Of a stretch of DNA of 47,822 nt, positions 27,001-45,000 are shown piece by piece. Position numbers: made by a program. The stretch's first letter is position 1. Each line of letters opens with the position of its first letter. Where the stretch lies: contig CAYNHV010000007.1 in assembly GCA_964397315.1 (NCBI GenBank), forward strand, positions 1 through 47,822, written 5' to 3'. Source of the DNA: an uncultured Methanosarcinales archaeon. GTDB lineage: Archaea > Nanobdellota > Nanobdellia > Woesearchaeales > UBA12501.

Positions 27001-30000
27001 GCCTATGTGCAGCCTGAACCTGGGCAGTCTTGTCCTGTTCCTGACAGGTATGGTGAGGTTGATTGTCTCATTTGCTGCTGCGCTCTCTTTTGTAAGATTG
27101 TGTTCAATATCCCCCTCTACCCATACCGGCTGGGTTGCGGTGGAGTTATGGTGGAAGCTTATCACGAAGCTGTCATTTATCCTTCCTATGAAGGTGAAGA
27201 ATGTCTCAAAATCCTCCTCATCCTTTATCTTCTTACCTACATGCTTGTTTTCGCTGTCACTGATGCTTTCGTTGACTTTGGGTTTCTGAACCCCTGCAGC
27301 AGAATCAGATTTTTCTGAATTGTTTGTGGGGGTACTTTTTGCTGCAGGGGTTTCTGAGAGATTGTTATCCTTTTCAGCCTGTTTTTCAGGCTCTTGAGCA
27401 TCCTCAGGCTCCTTCACAATGAAGCTTGTGGAAAGCTCTTTTGTTATGTTCTCCTGTTGTATTACCGCGATGACAGTGTAATTTCCCACCTTTTCAACAG
27501 GAAAATCCTTTGACACAGCCACAAGAGCGCCGTCCCTGAGCACCTCTACTGAATGATTAGAGCTTGCAGGAACCACAAAAACATGGGCCATGTCTCCAAC
27601 ATCATACTCATCACTTCCTGTGAATACTTCTGCTTTCTCAAGCGCTGCGTGGCCTGTTATTGAACCCATATATCCTGAGGTATAGAGGAATCCCAGTATG
27701 CCAAGTGCTGTCAGTATAAACAGTATCTGGCCGAGTGTTGCCTTCCTATTCCCCATGGCTTTTATCATCCTCTTTTTCTGAATCGCTTACTGCAAGTATT
27801 ATAGAATCCTTTGTGTGGTCCTTGAACTCCATGCGAATGCCTTTGCCCCATCCCTTGAACTCAGCAAGCCTTTTGGGTATTGTTATGATGAGCTGGCCGT
27901 TTGGGAGCTTTTGTATTCTTACCATTGGAGATTATTAATATTCAGAAGACTATTCGTTAGAATATTTGAAATACTATTAATTTTATTAATCAAAAACATA
28001 TTTAAAAGACTATTTGATACAATATTATTTAAATGTTTCGCTTATTATCCCAGCGTTGCGCAGGCGACAAGCACCCATCTGGTTTTGCCGGCACTTACAG
28101 CAAAATTAATATACCCATGAAACAAGCAAGCCCTTATGGAGCCATGGACAAGAAAATACCAGCCAAAGAACACTGCTGAGGTGACAGGCCAAAAAGAGGC
28201 TGTCAGGAATGTGAGGGAGTTCATAGCAGACTACAGGAACAAGAAAAAGAGAGCAGCAATAATACACGGCCCTGTAGGATGCGGAAAGACAGTCTCAGTA
28301 TACGCAGCTGCCAATGAGCTCGGACTTGAGATAATAGAGGTGAATGCCTCAGACTTCAGGAACAAGGACCAGATAGAGTCAGTAGTCGGCTCAGCCTCGC
28401 AGCAGATGTCGCTCTTCTCAAAAGGCAAGGTCATACTTATAGACGAGATAGACGGGCTCAGCGGAATGCAGGACAGGGGAGGCATCTCAGCTCTTGTTAA
28501 GCTGATAGACAAGACAGCATTCCCCCTGATATGCACTGCATCAGACCCATTTGACAAGAAGTTCTCTGCATTAAGGAAAAAGAGCACAATGATAGAGTTC
28601 AAAGAGCTTGACCACAAGCACATATTTGAATCCCTTAAATCAATATGCGGCAAGGAAAGCATAAAATTCAGGGAGGATGACCTGAAGACACTCTCAAGGA
28701 GGGCTGGCGGAGACTTGAGGGCTGCGGTAAATGACCTTCAGACGCTTGCAGAGGGAAAGAAAGAGCTTGTTAAGGAGGAGATGGACAAGCTGAGCCAGAG
28801 GGAGAGGACAGAAAGCATACTCAATGCAGTGATGAAAGTCCTGAAGACAACAGACCCCTCAATAGCAATAAGCTCATTCAACAACATTGAAGAGGACTTT
28901 GACGAGGTAATGCTCTGGATGGACGAGAACATGCCAAAGGAGTACAACAAGCCAGGTGACCTTGCAAGGGCGTATGATTACATCTCCAAGGCAGACATCA
29001 TGAGAAGGAGGATAAGAAGATGGCAGCACTGGAGGTTTCTTGCTTATGTCAATGCTTACCTTTCAGCGGGCATCGCAGTGTCAAAGGATGAGAAATACAA
29101 AAAGTTCATCAGGTACGGGCCGACAAAAAGGCTGCTAAAGATATGGATGGCAAACAGGAAATACCAGAAGAGAAAGGCAATAGCCGAAAAGGTTGCTGAG
29201 AAAACCCACTCCTCAGCAAAAAGGGCGCTGCACGACACGCTGCCCTACCTGCAGGCCATATTCCAGAAAGACATTGACAGCGGAATGAAACTTGCAGACT
29301 GGCTTGAGCTTGACAGGGAAGAAGCAGAGTGGATGTGCGGGTGAATGCGGGGTAAATGCGCGCTACGGTTGTTCTTTAAAATCTTCAGACTCCCTTACTT
29401 AATCGTCGTCACAGGCCTGGCCTGCAGTATGTACACCTTGCCAGCCTCTATGGCCCACTCTATGTCCATCGGGATGCCATAGTGCTTCTCAATATCTTTT
29501 GTGAACCTTGTCAGGGCTTTTGCTTCCTTTTCATCCAGCACTTCAATGTGGCCGTGCTCAATGCTTCTCTTCTCTGTCTTTCCCTCCCTGTTCCTGAAGT
29601 AGCCCCACTCAAGTTTCCCTATGCTTTTGTCCTTTATGTCGTGGCTCTCCTTGTGTATTATGTAAGAATGGGGTGTCAATTCACCGGCAACAACCGCTTC
29701 TCCAAGGCCGTAGGCTCCCTCTATTATTATCTCCTCCCTGCTGTTTGTTACCGGGTTGACAGAGAATATCACTCCTGCCTTGTCTGCATTGATCATCCTC
29801 TGAACAACAACAGCAAGATATACCTTCTCATGAGGAAAGTTGTTTCTCTGCCTGTAGTATATTGCCCTTGGAGTGAAGAGAGATGCAAAGCATTTCTTTA
29901 CTGCCTCAAGAACATCACCCTCCCCTTTTATGTTGAGGAATGTGTCCTGCTGGCCCGCGAAGCTCGCATCAGGAAGGTCCTCTGCTGTTGCAGAGCTTCT

Positions 30001-42000: not shown

Positions 42001-45000
42001 GGACTCCCTTTCAGGCAGTATAAGTGTGGTGTAAATCCTGTTTATATCCTTTATTCCATTCTCTTTGCAGAACTTTCCCAGCTTCTCGGTCATTTTTCTC
42101 TCTGAGCCGAGGATAAAAGGGTCTATTATCATGTCAATCTTCCTGCACTTCAGCACAGTCTGCCATGCCCTTTTGTGGAGGTCAAAAAGCTCTTCATCAG
42201 GCATCTGGCTGAGGTCCCTGCTCTTTACTTCCTCGTACAGTTTCTCATACTGCAGGCGGTGTTTCTTCCACTCACTGAACCATCCTTCCAGCCATTTCCT
42301 GTCACTTCTGTGCCTGCTGATTATCTCGTCCGATAAAACATCCTGATCCTGCTCTGGCGTGAGCCACCATATTCTGTTGTTTTCGCAGAAGATCAGAAGA
42401 ACGCTGTATTGTTTCTCAAGAGGATCCAGATGCCTTAAGGACTGGCCTGCCAGGCTGGCGAATACAGGGTTACCCTCTGCTGACTCCTCATACCATTCTT
42501 TGTTTTTGTATTTCTCTTTGATACCCATATTTTAGTCACTTTATTATTTTAATTTATTAAATTATCTTACCAGTTCCTTTCAAAATATATGAACGCGAAG
42601 ACGAGGAGAATGGGCCACTTAAGAAAGCCCCCTACAAATAAGAGGGCATATACTGTAGCCACAAGCAGGAGCATATTGAACAGCAGGTTTTTCCTGGTCT
42701 TGGATATGTGATTCTTGTAGCTCTTGGCGCTGAGACTGTCTTTCCATTGAAAATCTTCTTTTGTGATTCTGACCACCTGATTCAATTATTCCTTAGGTAA
42801 ATATAACACCGCCCAAAAAAGAGCATTCAGGGCATCCCAAAAACATAGCCAAGATACTCCCGGTCACCTTCTCCTGGATGGCAGCCGTACATATTGTTGA
42901 CATACTCAACAGGATTATGCCATCTGAGCATCATTTTCCTGCATTCTGATACAGTTGGAATCACGCTATCAACTGAATGTTCTGCGCCCCTGAAACCCAT
43001 CTTCATGCCTTTGATATCATCTATGTTATGGTCAACAATCAAATCAAGGCCTTCTCCAGGATTGAAGTTTCCACCCATGCTTCTTATATCCCTGTTTCCT
43101 GTAAGCATTGCGAGCCCTGCCTCAAGAAGCGGGGCATGGCTTATCCCCTCAATTCTGGCACCGTCCTCTACATCATCTGTGTTCATGACAGAAGCAAGAT
43201 GCACAATGATGTTCCTGCCAGCAGCATACATGTCTCCCCTGCTTCCATCCCGCTTCTTCCACTCATTGTCTAACCAGTACTGTATAATATCATCCCTGTC
43301 AGTTATCCCTTCAGGCTCAGGAGGATCAAGAGGGCTCAAGGCATAAGCAGGAAGAACCCTTTTATCATATCCATAACCTTTAATTATGTTCTGCCCTGTC
43401 TGGACAGCCCTTTCAACAGGAGATGAGTATACCTCAATTGAGGGATGCTCTTCCCTAAGCTTTTCACCTAATTTTCTGCTGGCCTGTACGCCCTCATTAG
43501 TGAGGTTACCGTCAGGCCCCTTTTTACCATGCCTTCTTACTGAATAGGTTACTCTACTGATATTGCTCATTTTCACCACCTGGGGGTTACATAGTTATCA
43601 CACATATTTAATACTTTTTAGTTTATTTTCTTACATTTACGCAATATTTATATAGAAATAACCCAAAATACTGCTTTTATGGCCTTCAAACTTGACCTCA
43701 AGGACAGAAAGCTCCTCACCCTTCTGGATGAGAACTGCAGGCAGAGCAACTCTCAGCTGGCCAGAAGAGTGGGGCTGAGCAAGCCTGCTGTTGAGTACAG
43801 AATAAGAAGATTAGAAAAGCGTCAGGCAATATTTGAGTATTACACTGTAATAGATTTCACAAGGCTGGGGTTTTCACAATACAAACTATACTTCAAGTTT
43901 CAGAACGCTACCCTTGAGGAGGAGAAACAGATAATTGAGTATTGGAAGGGATCAAAGAATATTGTGTGGGTTGCTCAGCTTAGGGGGAGGTGGGACCTTG
44001 CTGTGTCGGTGCTTGCAAGGTCAAACTTTGAGTTCGGAAGGATACTGAGCAGGTTTATGAACAGATACTCAGGATTCATACTTGACAAGGATGTGCTTCT
44101 TACTGAATACTCACCAATCTATGCAAGGGAATACATGACAGACACAGAACCAAAAGAGTTCATGTATGGCATTCCTGGAGGAAAATACAATCCTGACAGC
44201 ATAGAAAAGAAACTCCTGAGGCAGATATCAACAGACGCGAGGATTCCTATATTTGAGCTCTCAAAGAGGACAGGCCTTACAAGAGACATAATAAACTACA
44301 GGCTGAGGAAGCTCTCAAAGGATAAGATAATAGACCAGTTCAGGTGCTATCCCAACCTTGAGGAGATAGGCATAAACCTCTACAAGATAATATTCAGGAC
44401 AAAGAATCTTGATGAGAAAGCTGAAAAGGAGATAAAGGCATATGTTTCAGCAAACAAGAAAGCCCCTCAGATGCTCAAGCTCATTGGATCATGGGACCTT
44501 GAGATTGAGTTTGAAGTTGAGAATGAGGACGAACTCTACAAGCACCTGGCAGACATCAGGAAAATGTTCTCCTTCATCATAAGGGATTTTGACATAATAA
44601 GAGTGACGAGGATCTGCAAGTATGATTACTTCCCCTTTTAAGCTGAGCTTCCAAAAACTATATAAATAAAGGAAAAGGATTATCAAACCATGACACTCAC
44701 AATAGACCAAATGGCAACATTCTGCAAGAAAAAGGGGTTTATCTATCCCTCTGCAGAGCTCTATGGCGGGCTGGCAGGATTCTATGATTACGGCCACCTT
44801 GGTGTTGAGCTGAAGAGGAACATTGAGGAGCAGCTCTGGAACCGTTTTGTAAGGTCAAGACGCGATATAGTCGGCATTGACGGCGCTATAATCACAAGCC
44901 CGAGGGTCTGGCAGGCATCAGGACATGTTGACTGCTTTGAGGACATAATGATTGAGTGCTCCAAGTGCAGGCAGAGGTTCAGGGGAGACCACCTCATAGA

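What a model noticed while it worked through the whole genome (the two positions that open the first line are those of the whole stretch)
29395..42528. Two-component small-molecule dikinase battery: one ATP-grasp subunit and six substrate-binding/swivel-His paralogues aro [...]
C7:29395-42528 encodes a stand-alone ATP-grasp (PPDK_N) protein (g00619) and five tandem 476-526-aa paralogues (g00625, g00626, g00628, g00629, g00630; a sixth, g00426, on C4) made of a helical domain like the rifampin-binding domain of rifampin phosphotransferase plus a phosphohistidine swivel domain with the GGxTCHAAI motif. They are the archaeal counterpart of the bacterial two-component dikinases HpeHI/CreHI/PpsAB, but with one ATP-grasp partner for six diverged (28-36% identical) substrate subunits, interleaved with a phosphate acetyltransferase (g00627) in a genome in which no acetate kinase is found.
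Evidence so far: Pfam: only PEP-utilizers at the C-termini, PPDK_N alone in g00619. Paralogue identities 28-36% over the full length. AlphaFold2 of g00628 with 41 sequences: pLDDT 92.6, pTM 0.90; best PDB matches are rifampin phosphotransferase 5fbu/5fbt/5hv1, E 4e-13, ~470 aligned columns; PPDK, PEP synthase and EI match the swivel domain only. T435 and H437 invariant in the alignment. 3279 homologues at E<=1e-20, the named ones DPANN and Patescibacteria; tandem PEP-utilizers genes in >=80 and Pta beside them in >=31 of 822 Woesearchaeales. Acetate kinase: no six-frame match. A canonical PEP synthase (g00303) is present besides.
(Added by a program. Inside this text positions count along the whole contig: contig position 1 is position 1 of the stretch shown here. 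"Call 12" and the like, gene names such as g00115 and contig names such as C1 are that model's own, and its searches are not shown. The text may have been shortened before it was handed on; [...] marks where a part breaks off. The agent that wrote the report below was given it as the finding of a first reader that could run no searches.)

Follow-up and report, generated by a model that had tools for sequence, protein, structure and literature searches.

The report
Split dikinase array sharing one ATP-grasp
A small archaeal genome carries one ATP-binding subunit and six diverged substrate-binding/phospho-histidine subunits of a rifampin-phosphotransferase-like kinase, a gene family that is widely expanded in ultra-small archaea and bacteria and whose substrates are unknown.

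Summary
On the minus strand lie a stand-alone PPDK_N ATP-grasp gene, five tandem 476-526-aa paralogues ending in a PEP-utilizers swivel-His domain, and a PTA_PTB gene among them. A sixth paralogue lies on contig C4. My AlphaFold2 model (pLDDT 94.7) matches rifampin phosphotransferase over its rifampin-binding and swivel domains.

The two-component reading gains genomic support:
- There is one stand-alone ATP-grasp per genome.
- It lies within 10 kb of the arrays in 9 of 20 DPANN and CPR loci.
- In other genomes the ATP-grasp and several paralogue units sit in one open frame.

Two corrections apply.
- The modules are PEP-synthase-like, and the proteins do not meet the HpeH/PpsA family models, so "counterpart" is an analogy.
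- The "Pta" is a variant. The catalytic-cleft serine is Gly in 19 of 19 array-linked copies and Ser in 5 of 5 canonical copies beside acetate kinase. Acetate kinase is found in 2 of 19 genomes that have only the array-linked form. The missing acetate kinase is therefore not a paradox.

The PTA-like gene, an alpha/beta-hydrolase and a double acetyltransferase are lineage-specific additions. Phosphatases recur more widely. Substrates remain unknown. I rate this a new variant of a known kind.

The parts
29395..30333 (-). Stand-alone ATP-grasp subunit (312 aa), the only PPDK_N gene in the genome apart from the PEP synthase on C3
   Evidence: Pfam PPDK_N E 6.1e-111 over residues 16-310. The best NCBIfam model is PEP synthase at 388 bits, against 293 bits for RPH, N-terminal part only. 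PDB sequence search: PEP synthase 8a8e E 6e-84, RPH 5hv6 E 2e-65. It is 40% identical over 341 aa to the genome's own PEP synthase. The genome has 2 PPDK_N matches in all.
30333..31163 (-). 276-aa HAD-like protein, probably a phosphatase; its start overlaps the end of the gene upstream
   Evidence: No Pfam hit. Weak NCBIfam hit to a HAD phosphoserine-phosphatase-like model, E 1e-3. ESM Atlas nearest clusters are HAD hydrolases at 0.92-0.94. A DIDDC motif sits at residues 18-22. An orthologue occupies the same position in L001 at 239 bits.
31160..32242 (-). 360-aa alpha/beta-hydrolase (lipase/esterase/thioesterase-like) from a small family found only beside these arrays
   Evidence: No Pfam or NCBIfam hit. 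Only 30 proteins reach E<=1e-5 in 5.8 billion clusters. GHSSG (211-215), D297 and H323 are invariant in 30 sequences. AlphaFold2 pLDDT 87.1. The best Foldseek matches are monoacylglycerol lipases and carboxylesterases at E about 3e-7. Orthologues occur in L001, L004 and L008.
32316..33479 (-). 387-aa protein with two hexapeptide-repeat (LbH) acyltransferase domains
   Evidence: Pfam Hexapep E 3.3e-10. NCBIfam heptaprenylglyceryl-phosphate O-acetyltransferase model E 3.8e-32 at residues 60-183; WcaF-type acetyltransferase E 1.3e-19 at 301-384. All hits are below the curated cut-offs. Orthologues lie beside arrays in L001, L002, L003 and L008 at 413-663 bits.
34111..35691 (-). Paralogue 1 (526 aa): RIF-binding-like helical domain plus swivel-His domain (GGVTSH)
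   Evidence: Pfam PEP-utilizers E 2.5e-25 at 443-513. N-domain profile 551 bits. Its orthogroup includes CPR members L028 and L030, support 100.
35688..37133 (-). Paralogue 2 (481 aa), GGITCH
   Evidence: Pfam PEP-utilizers E 5.7e-27 at 405-474. N-domain profile 505 bits. Orthologue in G001 (L007) at 570 bits.
37135..38145 (-). PTA_PTB-fold protein (336 aa) of the array-linked variant type; its start overlaps the end of paralogue 3
   Evidence: Pfam PTA_PTB E 2.2e-90. NCBIfam pta equivalog 258.3 bits against a cut-off of 311.2. Aligned to P. gingivalis Pta: D309->I311, S311->G313, R312->R314 (kept), D318->T320. The serine-to-Gly change holds in 19 of 19 array-linked copies; the serine is kept in 5 of 5 canonical copies.
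38142..39620 (-). Paralogue 3 (492 aa), GGITSH; the copy that was folded
   Evidence: Pfam PEP-utilizers E 1.6e-27. AlphaFold2 pLDDT 94.7. RPH-Lm is the only full-length structural match. NCBIfam RPH-like model NF004878 aligns residues 195-479. The closest homologues are 54-59% identical, and Patescibacteria members reach up to 48%.
39617..41047 (-). Paralogue 4 (476 aa), GGITCH
   Evidence: Pfam PEP-utilizers E 1.4e-24. N-domain profile 494 bits.
41044..42528 (-). Paralogue 5 (494 aa), GGITCH; first gene of the array
   Evidence: Pfam PEP-utilizers E 1.4e-24. N-domain profile 538 bits. Its orthologue in G001 (L006) follows a His_Phos_1 gene, as it does here.
42827..43579 (-). 250-aa histidine-phosphatase-superfamily protein upstream of the array; a likely accessory gene
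   Evidence: Pfam His_Phos_1 E 4.5e-8. RHG motif at residues 16-18. His_Phos_1 genes lie inside or beside arrays in L006, L028, L031 and L037.

Best explanation
This is a split, multi-specificity small-molecule dikinase of the rifampin-phosphotransferase (RPH) type.

Proposed cycle:
1. The single ATP-grasp protein (29395-30333) binds ATP.
2. The C-terminal swivel domain of any one of the six paralogues docks on it, and its histidine (GGxT[CS]H) takes the beta,gamma-pyrophosphate.
3. The gamma-phosphate is lost to water as Pi.
4. The swivel domain swings back onto its own helical, RIF-binding-like N-domain and passes the beta-phosphate to the small molecule bound there. The products are substrate-phosphate, AMP and Pi.

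The N-domains are only 14-25% identical to each other and fall into old orthogroups shared with CPR bacteria. Each paralogue therefore probably has its own substrate.

The neighbouring HAD-like and histidine phosphatases, the alpha/beta-hydrolase, the double LbH acyltransferase and the variant PTA-fold protein would act on the substrates or products.

Shown here: the gene content, domains, fold, conserved His, co-occurrence and gene fusions. Inferred from RPH, PpsAB and HpeHI: the catalytic cycle. Unknown: the substrates and the direction of the accessory steps.
For: Domains and fold.

Conserved histidine. H437 is invariant in 98 sequences. A His motif is present in 72 of 74 single-unit paralogues from 34 loci.

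One ATP-grasp per genome. The own genome has 2 PPDK_N matches, one of which is the PEP synthase. G013, G016, G012 and G023 each have one stand-alone copy beside 4-11 N-domain matches; none was found in G001.

Linkage. A stand-alone ATP-grasp lies within 10 kb of paralogues in 9 of 20 loci, from Woesearchaeota, Nanoarchaeota, Iainarchaeum, Parcubacteria, Magasanikiibacteria and other Patescibacteria.

Fusion. L009 (G024) is one 1641-aa frame with PPDK_N at 18-322 followed by three PEP-utilizers units. G172:C37 (4201 aa) and G279:C3 (2277 aa) hold ATP-grasp and N-domain matches in one open frame.

Co-occurrence in 301 genomes of the order. 68 have the N-domain. Among the 150 listed rows, 38 genomes have an ATP-grasp match in an open frame of 370 aa or less, and 33 of those 38 are N-domain-positive. 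Eight more N-domain-positive genomes carry the match in frames of 1253-4201 aa.

Mechanism precedent. For HpeHI the His mutant is dead and HpeH alone transfers phosphate between substrates (PMC12167813: abstract, Discussion and structure section read). For RPH see the abstract of PMC4844700 (search listing).
Against: - No biochemical data exist for any member of this family.
- No substrate can be named.
- The paralogues do not reach the curated cut-offs of any RPH, PigC or HpeH-type NCBIfam model.
- G001, in the same genus and 91% complete, has paralogues but no stand-alone ATP-grasp was found.
- 27 of the 68 N-domain-positive genomes show no non-PEPS ATP-grasp among the listed rows; 180 further matches were not listed.
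- In polyproteins some swivel units lack the canonical His motif: 1 of 3 units has it in L009 and 4 of 5 in L005. Not every unit need be catalytic.
Confidence: 0.75

Rival explanations
1. Acyl-activation route. One or more paralogues phosphorylate carboxylates (carboxylate + ATP + H2O -> acyl-phosphate + AMP + Pi). The variant PTA-fold protein then moves the acyl group to CoA for the LbH acyltransferase. This would work like fatty-acid kinase FakA with several FakB partners plus PlsX (that comparison is recalled, not tested here).
For: - The PTA-fold gene is embedded in the array with overlapping start and stop codons.
- In the 301-genome sample, all 22 genomes with a copy 45% or more identical to it have that copy within about 4 kb of an N-domain gene.
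- It keeps R314 and both CoA-site arginines, but the cleft Asp/Ser/Asp are replaced by Ile/Gly/Thr. That could enlarge the acyl pocket. Phosphotransbutyrylase also has Thr at the Asp316 position (PMC9706017 passages).
- The neighbours are a lipase/esterase-like hydrolase and an LbH O-acyltransferase. Relatives add SGNH/GDSL hydrolases.
Against: - No known member of the RPH/PEPS superfamily phosphorylates a carboxylate (my recollection; not searched).
- Among the 20 genome-contig loci a PTA homologue lies within 10 kb in only 2, so it is not part of the core system.
- The genome also has a 670-aa AMP-binding enzyme and a PFOR as routes to acetyl-CoA.
- S311A and D309A abolish activity in P. gingivalis Pta (PMC6461089), so the variant may not be an acyltransferase at all.
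Confidence: 0.12
2. Detoxification battery. The paralogues, like RPH, inactivate diverse antibiotics or toxic metabolites of hosts and neighbours by phosphorylation. The acetyltransferase, hydrolases and (in relatives) methyltransferases would be further drug-modifying enzymes.
For: - RPH is the only full-length structural relative.
- The LbH protein gives weak hits to Vat and CatB acetyltransferase models, E 5e-7 to 3e-4.
- Methyltransferase and esterase genes sit in related clusters.
- The distribution is patchy (68 of 301 genomes) with copy numbers up to 12.
- A CPR resistome survey already lists rph-like genes (PMC8651080 passages).
Against: - The paralogues fall into orthogroups shared across DPANN and CPR rather than into recent lineage-specific bursts (a quick tree with many long branches).
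- Phosphatases embedded in the arrays would undo an inactivating phosphorylation.
- No efflux genes or mobile-element genes were seen next to the window's array.
Confidence: 0.15
3. Acetate-kinase substitute. Pta makes acetyl-phosphate, which charges the swivel His; the ATP-grasp then makes ATP, so the system conserves energy in a genome without Ack.
For: - Ack was not found in G000, nor in G013, G016, G012 and G023.
- PFOR is present, so acetyl-CoA is made.
- The PTA-fold gene lies in the array.
Against: - The PTA-fold protein lacks three of the four residues needed for Pta activity.
- Most arrays outside this lineage have no PTA gene, and G023 has 9 paralogues and no PTA match.
- With a PEPS-type (water) ATP-grasp, making ATP from AMP + Pi and acetyl-phosphate is uphill by roughly 20 kJ/mol under standard conditions (my estimate from textbook hydrolysis energies, not a tool result).
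- Five to twelve diverged substrate domains are not needed for one substrate.
Confidence: 0.03
4. The paralogues are not enzymes but regulators or binding proteins, like PspR, the RPH-like PPS-like repressor of Haloferax mediterranei.
For: - PspR has the RPH architecture, binds DNA and does not phosphorylate rifampin (PMC10948481: abstract and passages).
- Some units in polyproteins lack the His motif.
Against: - The His and the surrounding motif are kept in 72 of 74 single-unit paralogues.
- They co-occur and fuse with an ATP-grasp.
- No DNA-binding domain was found by Pfam.
- Up to 12 copies in a 1.3-1.8 Mb genome is many for regulators of one type.
Confidence: 0.05

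Closest known systems
Rifampin phosphotransferase RPH (L. monocytogenes; PDB 5fbt, 5fbu, 5hv1)
   Same: - It is the only solved structure that aligns over the whole paralogue: RIF-binding domain plus swivel domain, Z 19.1, 423 residues.
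- It has the same three modules (ATP-grasp, helical substrate domain, C-terminal swivel His) and presumably the same ATP -> AMP + Pi + substrate-phosphate chemistry.
   Different: - RPH is one chain of about 865 aa. Here the ATP-grasp is a separate gene shared by six substrate subunits.
- Sequence identity is about 15%.
- The NCBIfam RPH model scores 62-76 bits against a cut-off of 999.
- The ATP-grasp and swivel modules are closer to PEP synthase than to RPH.
- The residue two before the His is Thr, where the HpeHI paper reports Met for RPH.
Two-component phenolic dikinases HpeHI / CreHI / PpsAB
   Same: - The enzyme is split in the same way: an I/B component that is the ATP-grasp, and an H/A component that is the RIF-binding-like domain plus swivel His.
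- The catalytic His is essential, and the complex is transient (PMC12167813).
   Different: - Those are one H with one I. [quoted passage not shown]
- HpeH is 71 kDa. These are 476-526 aa.
- The PRK08296 models match only the swivel domain.
- No carboxylase or aromatic-catabolism genes lie nearby.
- The hosts are DPANN archaea and CPR bacteria with 1-2 Mb genomes.
PEP synthase (pyruvate, water dikinase)
   Same: - The ATP-grasp subunit is 40% identical to the genome's own PEP synthase and 50-59% identical to the PEP synthases of other genomes of the order.
- The swivel domains are 43-45% identical to the PEPS swivel and keep its GGxT[CS]H motif.
   Different: - There is no PEP-utilizers_C TIM-barrel domain in any paralogue.
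- A helical RIF-binding-like domain lies N-terminal to the swivel instead.
- No PSRP regulator (PF03618) was found in the genome.
Phosphate acetyltransferase Pta of the Pta-Ack pathway
   Same: - End-to-end PTA_PTB fold, about 40% identity to solved Ptas.
- R312 and both CoA-site arginines (P. gingivalis numbering) are kept.
   Different: - Cleft residues D309, S311 and D318 are I, G and T.
- The score is below the NCBIfam pta cut-off.
- It is linked to dikinase arrays rather than to ack. By my hand tally, Ack is present in 2 of 19 genomes that have only array-linked copies, against 111 of 129 genomes with other Pta homologues.
PspR, the RPH-like PPS-like repressor of Haloferax mediterranei
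   Same: An archaeal protein with the RPH domain set that is neither PEP synthase nor a rifampin kinase (PMC10948481).
   Different: - PspR is a single chain that includes the ATP-binding domain, and it is reported to bind DNA.
- It is not in tandem arrays.

Membership tests
RPH-type small-molecule dikinases | ATP-grasp (PPDK_N) nucleotide-binding module | tested here: met
   Pfam PPDK_N E 6.1e-111, but on a separate polypeptide.
RPH-type small-molecule dikinases | Helical substrate domain with the fold of the rifampin-binding domain | tested here: met
   AlphaFold2 pLDDT 94.7. 5fbt gives Z 19.1 over model 6-479 against chain 318-867. 5hv3 gives Z 13.7 over the N-domain alone, model 9-369 against chain 321-751.
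RPH-type small-molecule dikinases | C-terminal swivel domain with the phospho-carrier His near the C-terminus | tested here: met
   PEP-utilizers is the last domain in all five. The GGxT[CS]H motif begins 48-61 residues from the C-terminus, the His itself 43-56.
RPH-type small-molecule dikinases | All three modules in one polypeptide; NCBIfam rifamycin-phosphotransferase cut-off reached | tested here: not met
   The genes are split. NF041857 scores 62-76 bits against a cut-off of 999.
RPH-type small-molecule dikinases | ATP -> AMP + Pi with phosphorylation of a small-molecule hydroxyl | not testable with these tools
   Needs an enzyme assay.
Two-component dikinases HpeHI/CreHI/PpsAB | ATP-grasp and substrate/swivel parts encoded by separate genes in one cluster | tested here: met
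   The same arrangement is seen in 9 of 20 related loci.
Two-component dikinases HpeHI/CreHI/PpsAB | H/A subunit belongs to the PRK08296 (HpeH/PpsA-like) sequence family | tested here: not met
   The PRK08296 models match only residues from about 350-410 to the C-terminus, at 66-105 bits against cut-offs of 578-730. That these models stand for HpeH/PpsA-like proteins is my recollection.
Two-component dikinases HpeHI/CreHI/PpsAB | Met instead of the regulatory Thr two residues before the His (PMC12167813) | tested here: not met
   Thr in the five window paralogues and Leu in the C4 copy. 66 of 74 relatives have T[CS]H.
Two-component dikinases HpeHI/CreHI/PpsAB | Physical contact of the two components | tested here: inconclusive
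   Complex prediction gave no verdict. Gene fusions in other genomes argue for joint action.
PEP synthase | PEP/pyruvate-binding TIM barrel (PEP-utilizers_C) | tested here: not met
   Absent from all five paralogues. Present in the PEP synthases L054 and L056.
Phosphate acetyltransferase (Pta) | PTA_PTB fold over the full length | tested here: met
   Pfam E 2.2e-90, profile positions 2-319 of 319.
Phosphate acetyltransferase (Pta) | Curated NCBIfam cut-off for pta | tested here: not met
   TIGR00651 scores 258.3 against 311.2; NF007233 scores 290.3 against 310.
Phosphate acetyltransferase (Pta) | Cleft residues Asp309, Ser311, Arg312, Asp318 (P. gingivalis numbering). Mutating the first three gives complete loss of activity; D318A keeps 11% | tested here: not met
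   The residues are I311, G313, R314 and T320. Gly replaces the Ser in 19 of 19 array-linked copies. Mutant data come from PMC6461089 passages.
Phosphate acetyltransferase (Pta) | Acetate kinase partner in the genome | tested here: not met
   No PF00871 match at E<=1 in G000, which is 93% complete.

The most novel reading that the evidence does not exclude
Ultra-small archaea and bacteria use a modular 'one engine, many adaptors' dikinase. A single PEPS-derived ATP-grasp charges up to a dozen diverged adaptor subunits, and in some genomes these are strung into polyproteins of 1,600-4,200 aa. Each adaptor phosphorylates a different scavenged metabolite and so traps or activates it. In the Woesearchaeales branch, at least one adaptor would make an acyl-phosphate that a re-tooled PTA-fold enzyme passes to CoA. 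That would be a kinase chemistry (carboxylate, water dikinase) not known in this superfamily, and an Ack- and ACS-independent route to acyl-CoA.
Probability: 0.15. Interest if true: 0.85.

Novelty: new variant of a known kind. Interest (0 to 1): 0.66.

Why it matters
- **Size of the family.** It is large: 2970 clusters at 50% identity reach E<=1e-10. It was found in 68 of 301 sampled genomes of the order and in CPR bacteria. It can take up 1-2% of a 1.3-1.8 Mb genome. No member has a known substrate.
- **Clue to lifestyle.** In organisms thought to live on metabolites taken from hosts, a battery of irreversible, probably high-affinity kinases is a plausible key to what they take up.
- **Enzyme design.** One ATP-grasp working with many substrate subunits, and the recurrent fusion into giant polyproteins, extends the two-component dikinase idea that was described in 2025 for aromatic catabolism.
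- **Annotation error.** The array-linked PTA-fold variant is likely to be counted as 'Pta' in metabolic reconstructions of Woesearchaeota. In my sample 19 of 148 Pta-positive genomes have only this form. Acetate-fermentation calls based on 'pta' may therefore be wrong for them.

Tried and rejected
1. **Complex prediction.** ATP-grasp (5-row alignment) + ATP + paralogue 3 (98-row alignment) scored 0.00 in two runs, against a mark of 0.32, so there is no verdict. It says nothing either way.
2. **UDP-GlcNAc 2-epimerase fusion lead.** The precomputed PF02350 labels on P0036 and P0056 do not hold. On rescanning, both proteins carry two PEP-utilizers domains. The Epimerase_2 hit is at E about 3e-7, below its cut-off, and lies over or next to a swivel domain.
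3. **Aminoacyl-tRNA synthetase linkage.** The synthetase is GlyRS in the window, L002 and L006 but ProRS in L031 and L037. I treat the adjacency as coincidence.
4. **First related-loci query.** The five-paralogue N-domain alignment had no stretch conserved enough. I repeated the scan with a closer alignment, A5.
6. **Expression.** No RNA holder is listed. Three DNA runs of one microbial-mat study hold the stretch. No reads were laid.
7. **Rfam.** No family reached its gathering score anywhere in the window.
8. **PSRP regulator** for the conserved Thr: not found in G000.
9. **Other sources or sinks of acetyl-phosphate.** Phosphoketolase gave only an 18-bit sub-threshold match. No ADP-forming acetyl-CoA synthetase CoA_binding_2 domain was found.
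10. **Literature.** Searches found no paper describing these split arrays in DPANN or CPR. Nearest are a CPR resistome paper that lists rph-like genes and two Woesearchaeota/DPANN papers that report Pta-Ack. Their supplementary tables were not opened and may list these genes.
11. **ESM Atlas for the 360-aa protein.** It gave only a lead at 0.89, which the fold search later supported.

Full report
**What is there**

The minus strand between 29395 and 42528 holds ten tightly packed genes in two blocks.
- Upstream block, read in the direction of transcription: paralogues of 494, 476 and 492 aa, a 336-aa PTA_PTB protein, then paralogues of 481 and 526 aa. Four of the five junctions are 4-base overlaps; at the fifth the genes abut.
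- A 630-base gap follows.
- Downstream block: a 387-aa double hexapeptide-repeat acyltransferase, a 360-aa protein, a 276-aa protein and the 312-aa ATP-grasp. The last three junctions are also overlaps.

Pfam finds PPDK_N alone in the 312-aa protein (E 6e-111). It finds PEP-utilizers only at the C-terminus of the five paralogues, and PTA_PTB in the 336-aa protein. Upstream, on the same strand, lies a histidine-phosphatase-superfamily gene (42827-43579).

Genome-wide (1.47 Mb, 61 contigs, 93% complete) there are:
- seven PEP-utilizers matches: five here, one on C4, one in the PEP synthase on C3;
- two PPDK_N matches: this one and the PEP synthase;
- one PTA_PTB match;
- no acetate kinase match.

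Pairwise identity is 23-32%, and 14-25% in the N-domains. The C4 copy has Leu, not Thr, two residues before the His.

**Fold**

I aligned paralogue 3 with 93 homologues and the four other window paralogues, then folded it. The model has pLDDT 94.7 and pTM 0.92.
- Foldseek against the PDB puts the Listeria rifampin phosphotransferase entries first (E 1.5e-12 to 6e-10, TM on the query 0.36-0.56). Every other significant match covers only the roughly 100-residue swivel domain.
- VIA-align gives Z 19.1 for 5fbt, with 423 residues aligned, model 6-479 on chain 318-867.
- It gives Z 13.7 for 5hv3 over the N-domain alone, model 9-369 on chain 321-751.
- At sequence level, RPH-like NCBIfam models align from about residue 195 to the end.

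The N-domain is therefore a homologue of the rifampin-binding domain.

The two other modules look like PEP synthase rather than RPH.
- The ATP-grasp scores 388 bits on the PEP synthase model against 293 on the RPH model.
- It is 40% identical to the genome's own PEP synthase.
- It is 50-59% identical to 770-800-aa proteins of other genomes of the order. I checked two of these and both are true PEP synthases with PEP-utilizers_C.
- The swivel domains are 43-45% identical to the PEPS swivel.
- They keep its Thr-[Cys/Ser]-His. The HpeHI paper reports Met at that position in HpeH, CreH, PpsA and RPH (PMC12167813, structure section).
- No PSRP regulator was found.

**Is it a two-component enzyme with one shared ATP-grasp?**

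Four lines of genomic evidence say yes.

1. *Copy number.* G013, G016, G012 and G023 each have one stand-alone PPDK_N frame of 320-366 aa besides their PEP synthase. They carry 11, 11, 4 and 9 N-domain matches respectively. G001 has paralogues, but no stand-alone copy was found; it is 91% complete.

2. *Linkage.* L001 (G013) repeats the window's order: ATP-grasp, HAD-like, hydrolase, LbH, then seven paralogues with the PTA gene among them. A scan of one genome per species with a closer N-domain alignment returned 20 loci. Three of them are the same contigs as L001-L004. A stand-alone ATP-grasp lies within 10 kb of the paralogues in 9 of the 20. These include Iainarchaeum, Parcubacteria, Magasanikiibacteria and other Patescibacteria.

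3. *Fusion.* L009 (G024:C32) is one 1641-aa frame with PPDK_N at residues 18-322 followed by three PEP-utilizers units. In G172:C37 (4201 aa) and G279:C3 (2277 aa), the ATP-grasp and N-domain matches share one open frame. Multi-unit proteins without an ATP-grasp are common:
   - L005 has 2815 aa and six N-domain units.
   - L023 has 1805 aa; L037 has 2388 and 975 aa.
   - About 20 of the best 150 representatives exceed 800 aa and have 2-5 matched stretches.

4. *Co-occurrence.* In 301 genomes of the order (80% or more complete), 68 have the N-domain at E<=1e-10 (at most six candidates per genome were scored, so copy numbers there are capped).
   - In the 150 listed rows of the ATP-grasp search, 38 genomes have the match in an open frame of 370 aa or less. 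Of these, 33 are N-domain-positive and 5 (G184, G009, G063, G113, G028) are not.
   - Eight further N-domain-positive genomes have the match in frames of 1253-4201 aa.
   - These are hand tallies, and 180 matches were not listed, so they are lower bounds.

The complex prediction gave no verdict and is not used.

**How it most likely works**

By homology with RPH, PpsAB and HpeHI, the swivel His takes the beta,gamma-pyrophosphate from ATP held by the ATP-grasp. The gamma-phosphate then leaves as Pi. The beta-phosphate is delivered to a substrate bound in the helical domain of the same paralogue (PMC12167813 Discussion).
- Shown here: the parts, the invariant His and the genomic coupling.
- Inferred: the cycle itself.

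The residues conserved both across all five window paralogues and across the 98-row alignment are P27, P177, S181, F182, W215, K284, R304 and R337. They point to a common phosphotransfer site. The rest of the N-domain is free to vary.

A quick maximum-likelihood tree of 74 single-unit paralogues mixes the window's family, other DPANN and CPR in most well-supported groups. It needs 23 label changes where 2 is the minimum. Each window paralogue is thus closer to proteins of distant organisms than to its neighbours. For example, paralogue 1 groups with Saccharibacteria and another CPR genome at support 100. That fits a set of old, distinct specificities spread by transfer of whole or partial arrays. 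The tree has many long branches and was not the finished careful search.

**The 'Pta'**

Its fold is PTA_PTB from end to end, but it misses the NCBIfam pta cut-offs.

Aligned to P. gingivalis Pta, the motif N-D-L-S-R-G...E-D reads A-I-L-G-R-S...E-T. That maps as:
- D309 to Ile;
- S311 to Gly;
- R312 kept;
- D318 to Thr.

In that enzyme D309A, S311A and R312A abolish activity and D318A leaves 11% (PMC6461089 passages). The corresponding M. thermophila residues Ser309 and Asp316 are assigned substrate stabilisation and proton abstraction. Phosphotransbutyrylase has Thr at the Asp316 position and a different nearby Asp (PMC9706017 passages).

I collected 19 array-linked copies: the window, six from related loci, nine from other families of the order, and three more distant ones.
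- All 19 have Gly at the Ser position.
- Five canonical copies that sit next to an acetate kinase gene all have N-D-L-S-R-G.
- Both CoA-site arginines are kept in 22 of the 24 copies; two canonical copies vary at the second.

In the order sample, 148 of 301 genomes have a homologue.
- 22 genomes have a copy 45% or more identical to the window's, and in all 22 it lies within about 4 kb of an N-domain gene.
- Of these 22, 16 have no other Pta homologue. Acetate kinase is found in 1 of those 16 (G130).
- The other six also have a canonical copy. Five of those six have Ack, each time next to the canonical copy.
- Three more genomes (G217, G078, G267) have a 39%-identical, Gly-type copy beside their arrays. 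Of these, only G078 has an Ack match, and it is partial.
- By my hand tally, Ack occurs in 111 of the 129 genomes with other Pta homologues.

So the array-linked protein is a distinct subfamily that does not travel with Ack. The lack of Ack in this genome is not a gap to be filled by the dikinase.

It is also not a core part of the system. Among the 20 genome-contig loci a PTA homologue is within 10 kb only in the two from the window's own family. G023 has nine paralogues and no PTA match.

What it does is open. It could be a phosphate acyltransferase with an altered pocket, or a CoA/acyl-CoA-binding subunit without catalysis.

**The other neighbours**

- *The 360-aa protein* belongs to a family of only 30 detectable members. 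It has an invariant GHSSG, Asp297 and His323. It folds (pLDDT 87.1) as an alpha/beta-hydrolase closest to monoacylglycerol lipases, carboxylesterases and thioesterases.
- *The 276-aa protein* is HAD-like.
- *The 387-aa protein* is a tandem LbH acyltransferase. Its first half resembles the heptaprenylglyceryl-phosphate O-acetyltransferase model.
- *In relatives,* SGNH/GDSL/AlgX-like hydrolases, SAM methyltransferases and a HAD_2 phosphatase join the cluster.
- *Across the distant loci,* the recurrent companions are phosphatases. His_Phos_1 occurs inside or beside arrays in L006, L028, L031 and L037, as in the window. HAD occurs in L024 and L030.

Kinases with phosphatases and acyl-group enzymes suggest that phosphorylation is a transient activating or trapping step, as proposed for HpeHI. 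This does not identify the substrates.

The own genome has a PFOR and one AMP-binding enzyme. No phosphoketolase and no ADP-forming acetyl-CoA synthetase were detected.

**Comparison and novelty**

The system works like RPH and like the two-component phenolic dikinases, but it is a member of neither curated family (see the membership table). Four features are new relative to the descriptions I could find:
- the 5-12:1 ratio of substrate subunits to ATP-grasp;
- the concatenated polyproteins;
- the PEPS-like modules combined with an RPH-like substrate domain;
- the occurrence and expansion in DPANN and CPR genomes, with the associated PTA-fold variant.

Searches of the paper library found the HpeHI paper, the RPH structure paper, an RPH-like repressor in Haloferax and a CPR resistome survey that counts rph-like genes. 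None describes these arrays. I read only listings, abstracts and passages, except for the HpeHI paper, where I also read its Discussion and structure section. No supplements were opened.

**Verdict**

The feature is real and well supported. It is a new variant of a known kind. The substrates, and so the biological role, remain unknown.

The tallies include a few genomes that the tools flag as unpublished. No individual claim rests on them.

Noticed in passing
window 11910-17888 (-) and 20992-27768 (-): Two giant ORFs of 1992 and 2258 aa. The first has Laminin_G_3 (concanavalin-A-like lectin) domains and the second only a weak Big_13 hit. A 440-aa Laminin_G_3 protein lies at 5353-6675. They are probably surface proteins.
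   Followed up: no
L005 (G023:C7) 7320-15767; L009 (G024:C32) 1100-6025; L023 5942-11359; L037 2669-9835 and 11323-14250; G172:C37 (4201-aa frame); G279:C3 (2277-aa frame): Several paralogue units are concatenated into single open frames of about 1,000-4,200 aa, some starting with the ATP-grasp. Not every swivel unit in them keeps the canonical GGxT[CS]H motif: 1 of 3 Pfam-detected units in L009 and 4 of 5 in L005.
   Followed up: partly
G023:C1:29728-30606: A partial PPDK_N match (E 1e-23) lies inside an open frame of 6471 aa.
   Followed up: no
L007 1699-3129, L002 9410-10834, L008 5999-7453, L001 13918-15399: In four related genomes the gene directly downstream of the PTA-fold gene belongs to one paralogue orthogroup. 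That group also contains the single paralogue next to the ATP-grasp in the Patescibacteria loci L034-L036. The window has no member of this group: here the PTA-fold gene is followed by the 481-aa paralogue.
   Followed up: partly
window 33819-34124 (-) and 42567-42785 (-): Two small ORFs with no family match. The first is 101 aa and overlaps the end of paralogue 1. The second is 72 aa with a strongly hydrophobic stretch, just upstream of the array. It is unclear whether they are genes.
   Followed up: no
window 43679-44641 (+), 44690-46156 (+), 28136-29344 (+), 18673-19461 (+): Flanking genes: a 320-aa protein with two AsnC/HTH_24 domains divergent from the array, glycine-tRNA ligase, a replication-factor-C-like AAA+ protein, and a KaiC-type ATPase.
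   Followed up: no
G130:C5:24682-25602: This is the one genome in the sample that has an acetate kinase while its only detected Pta homologue is the array-linked variant.
   Followed up: no
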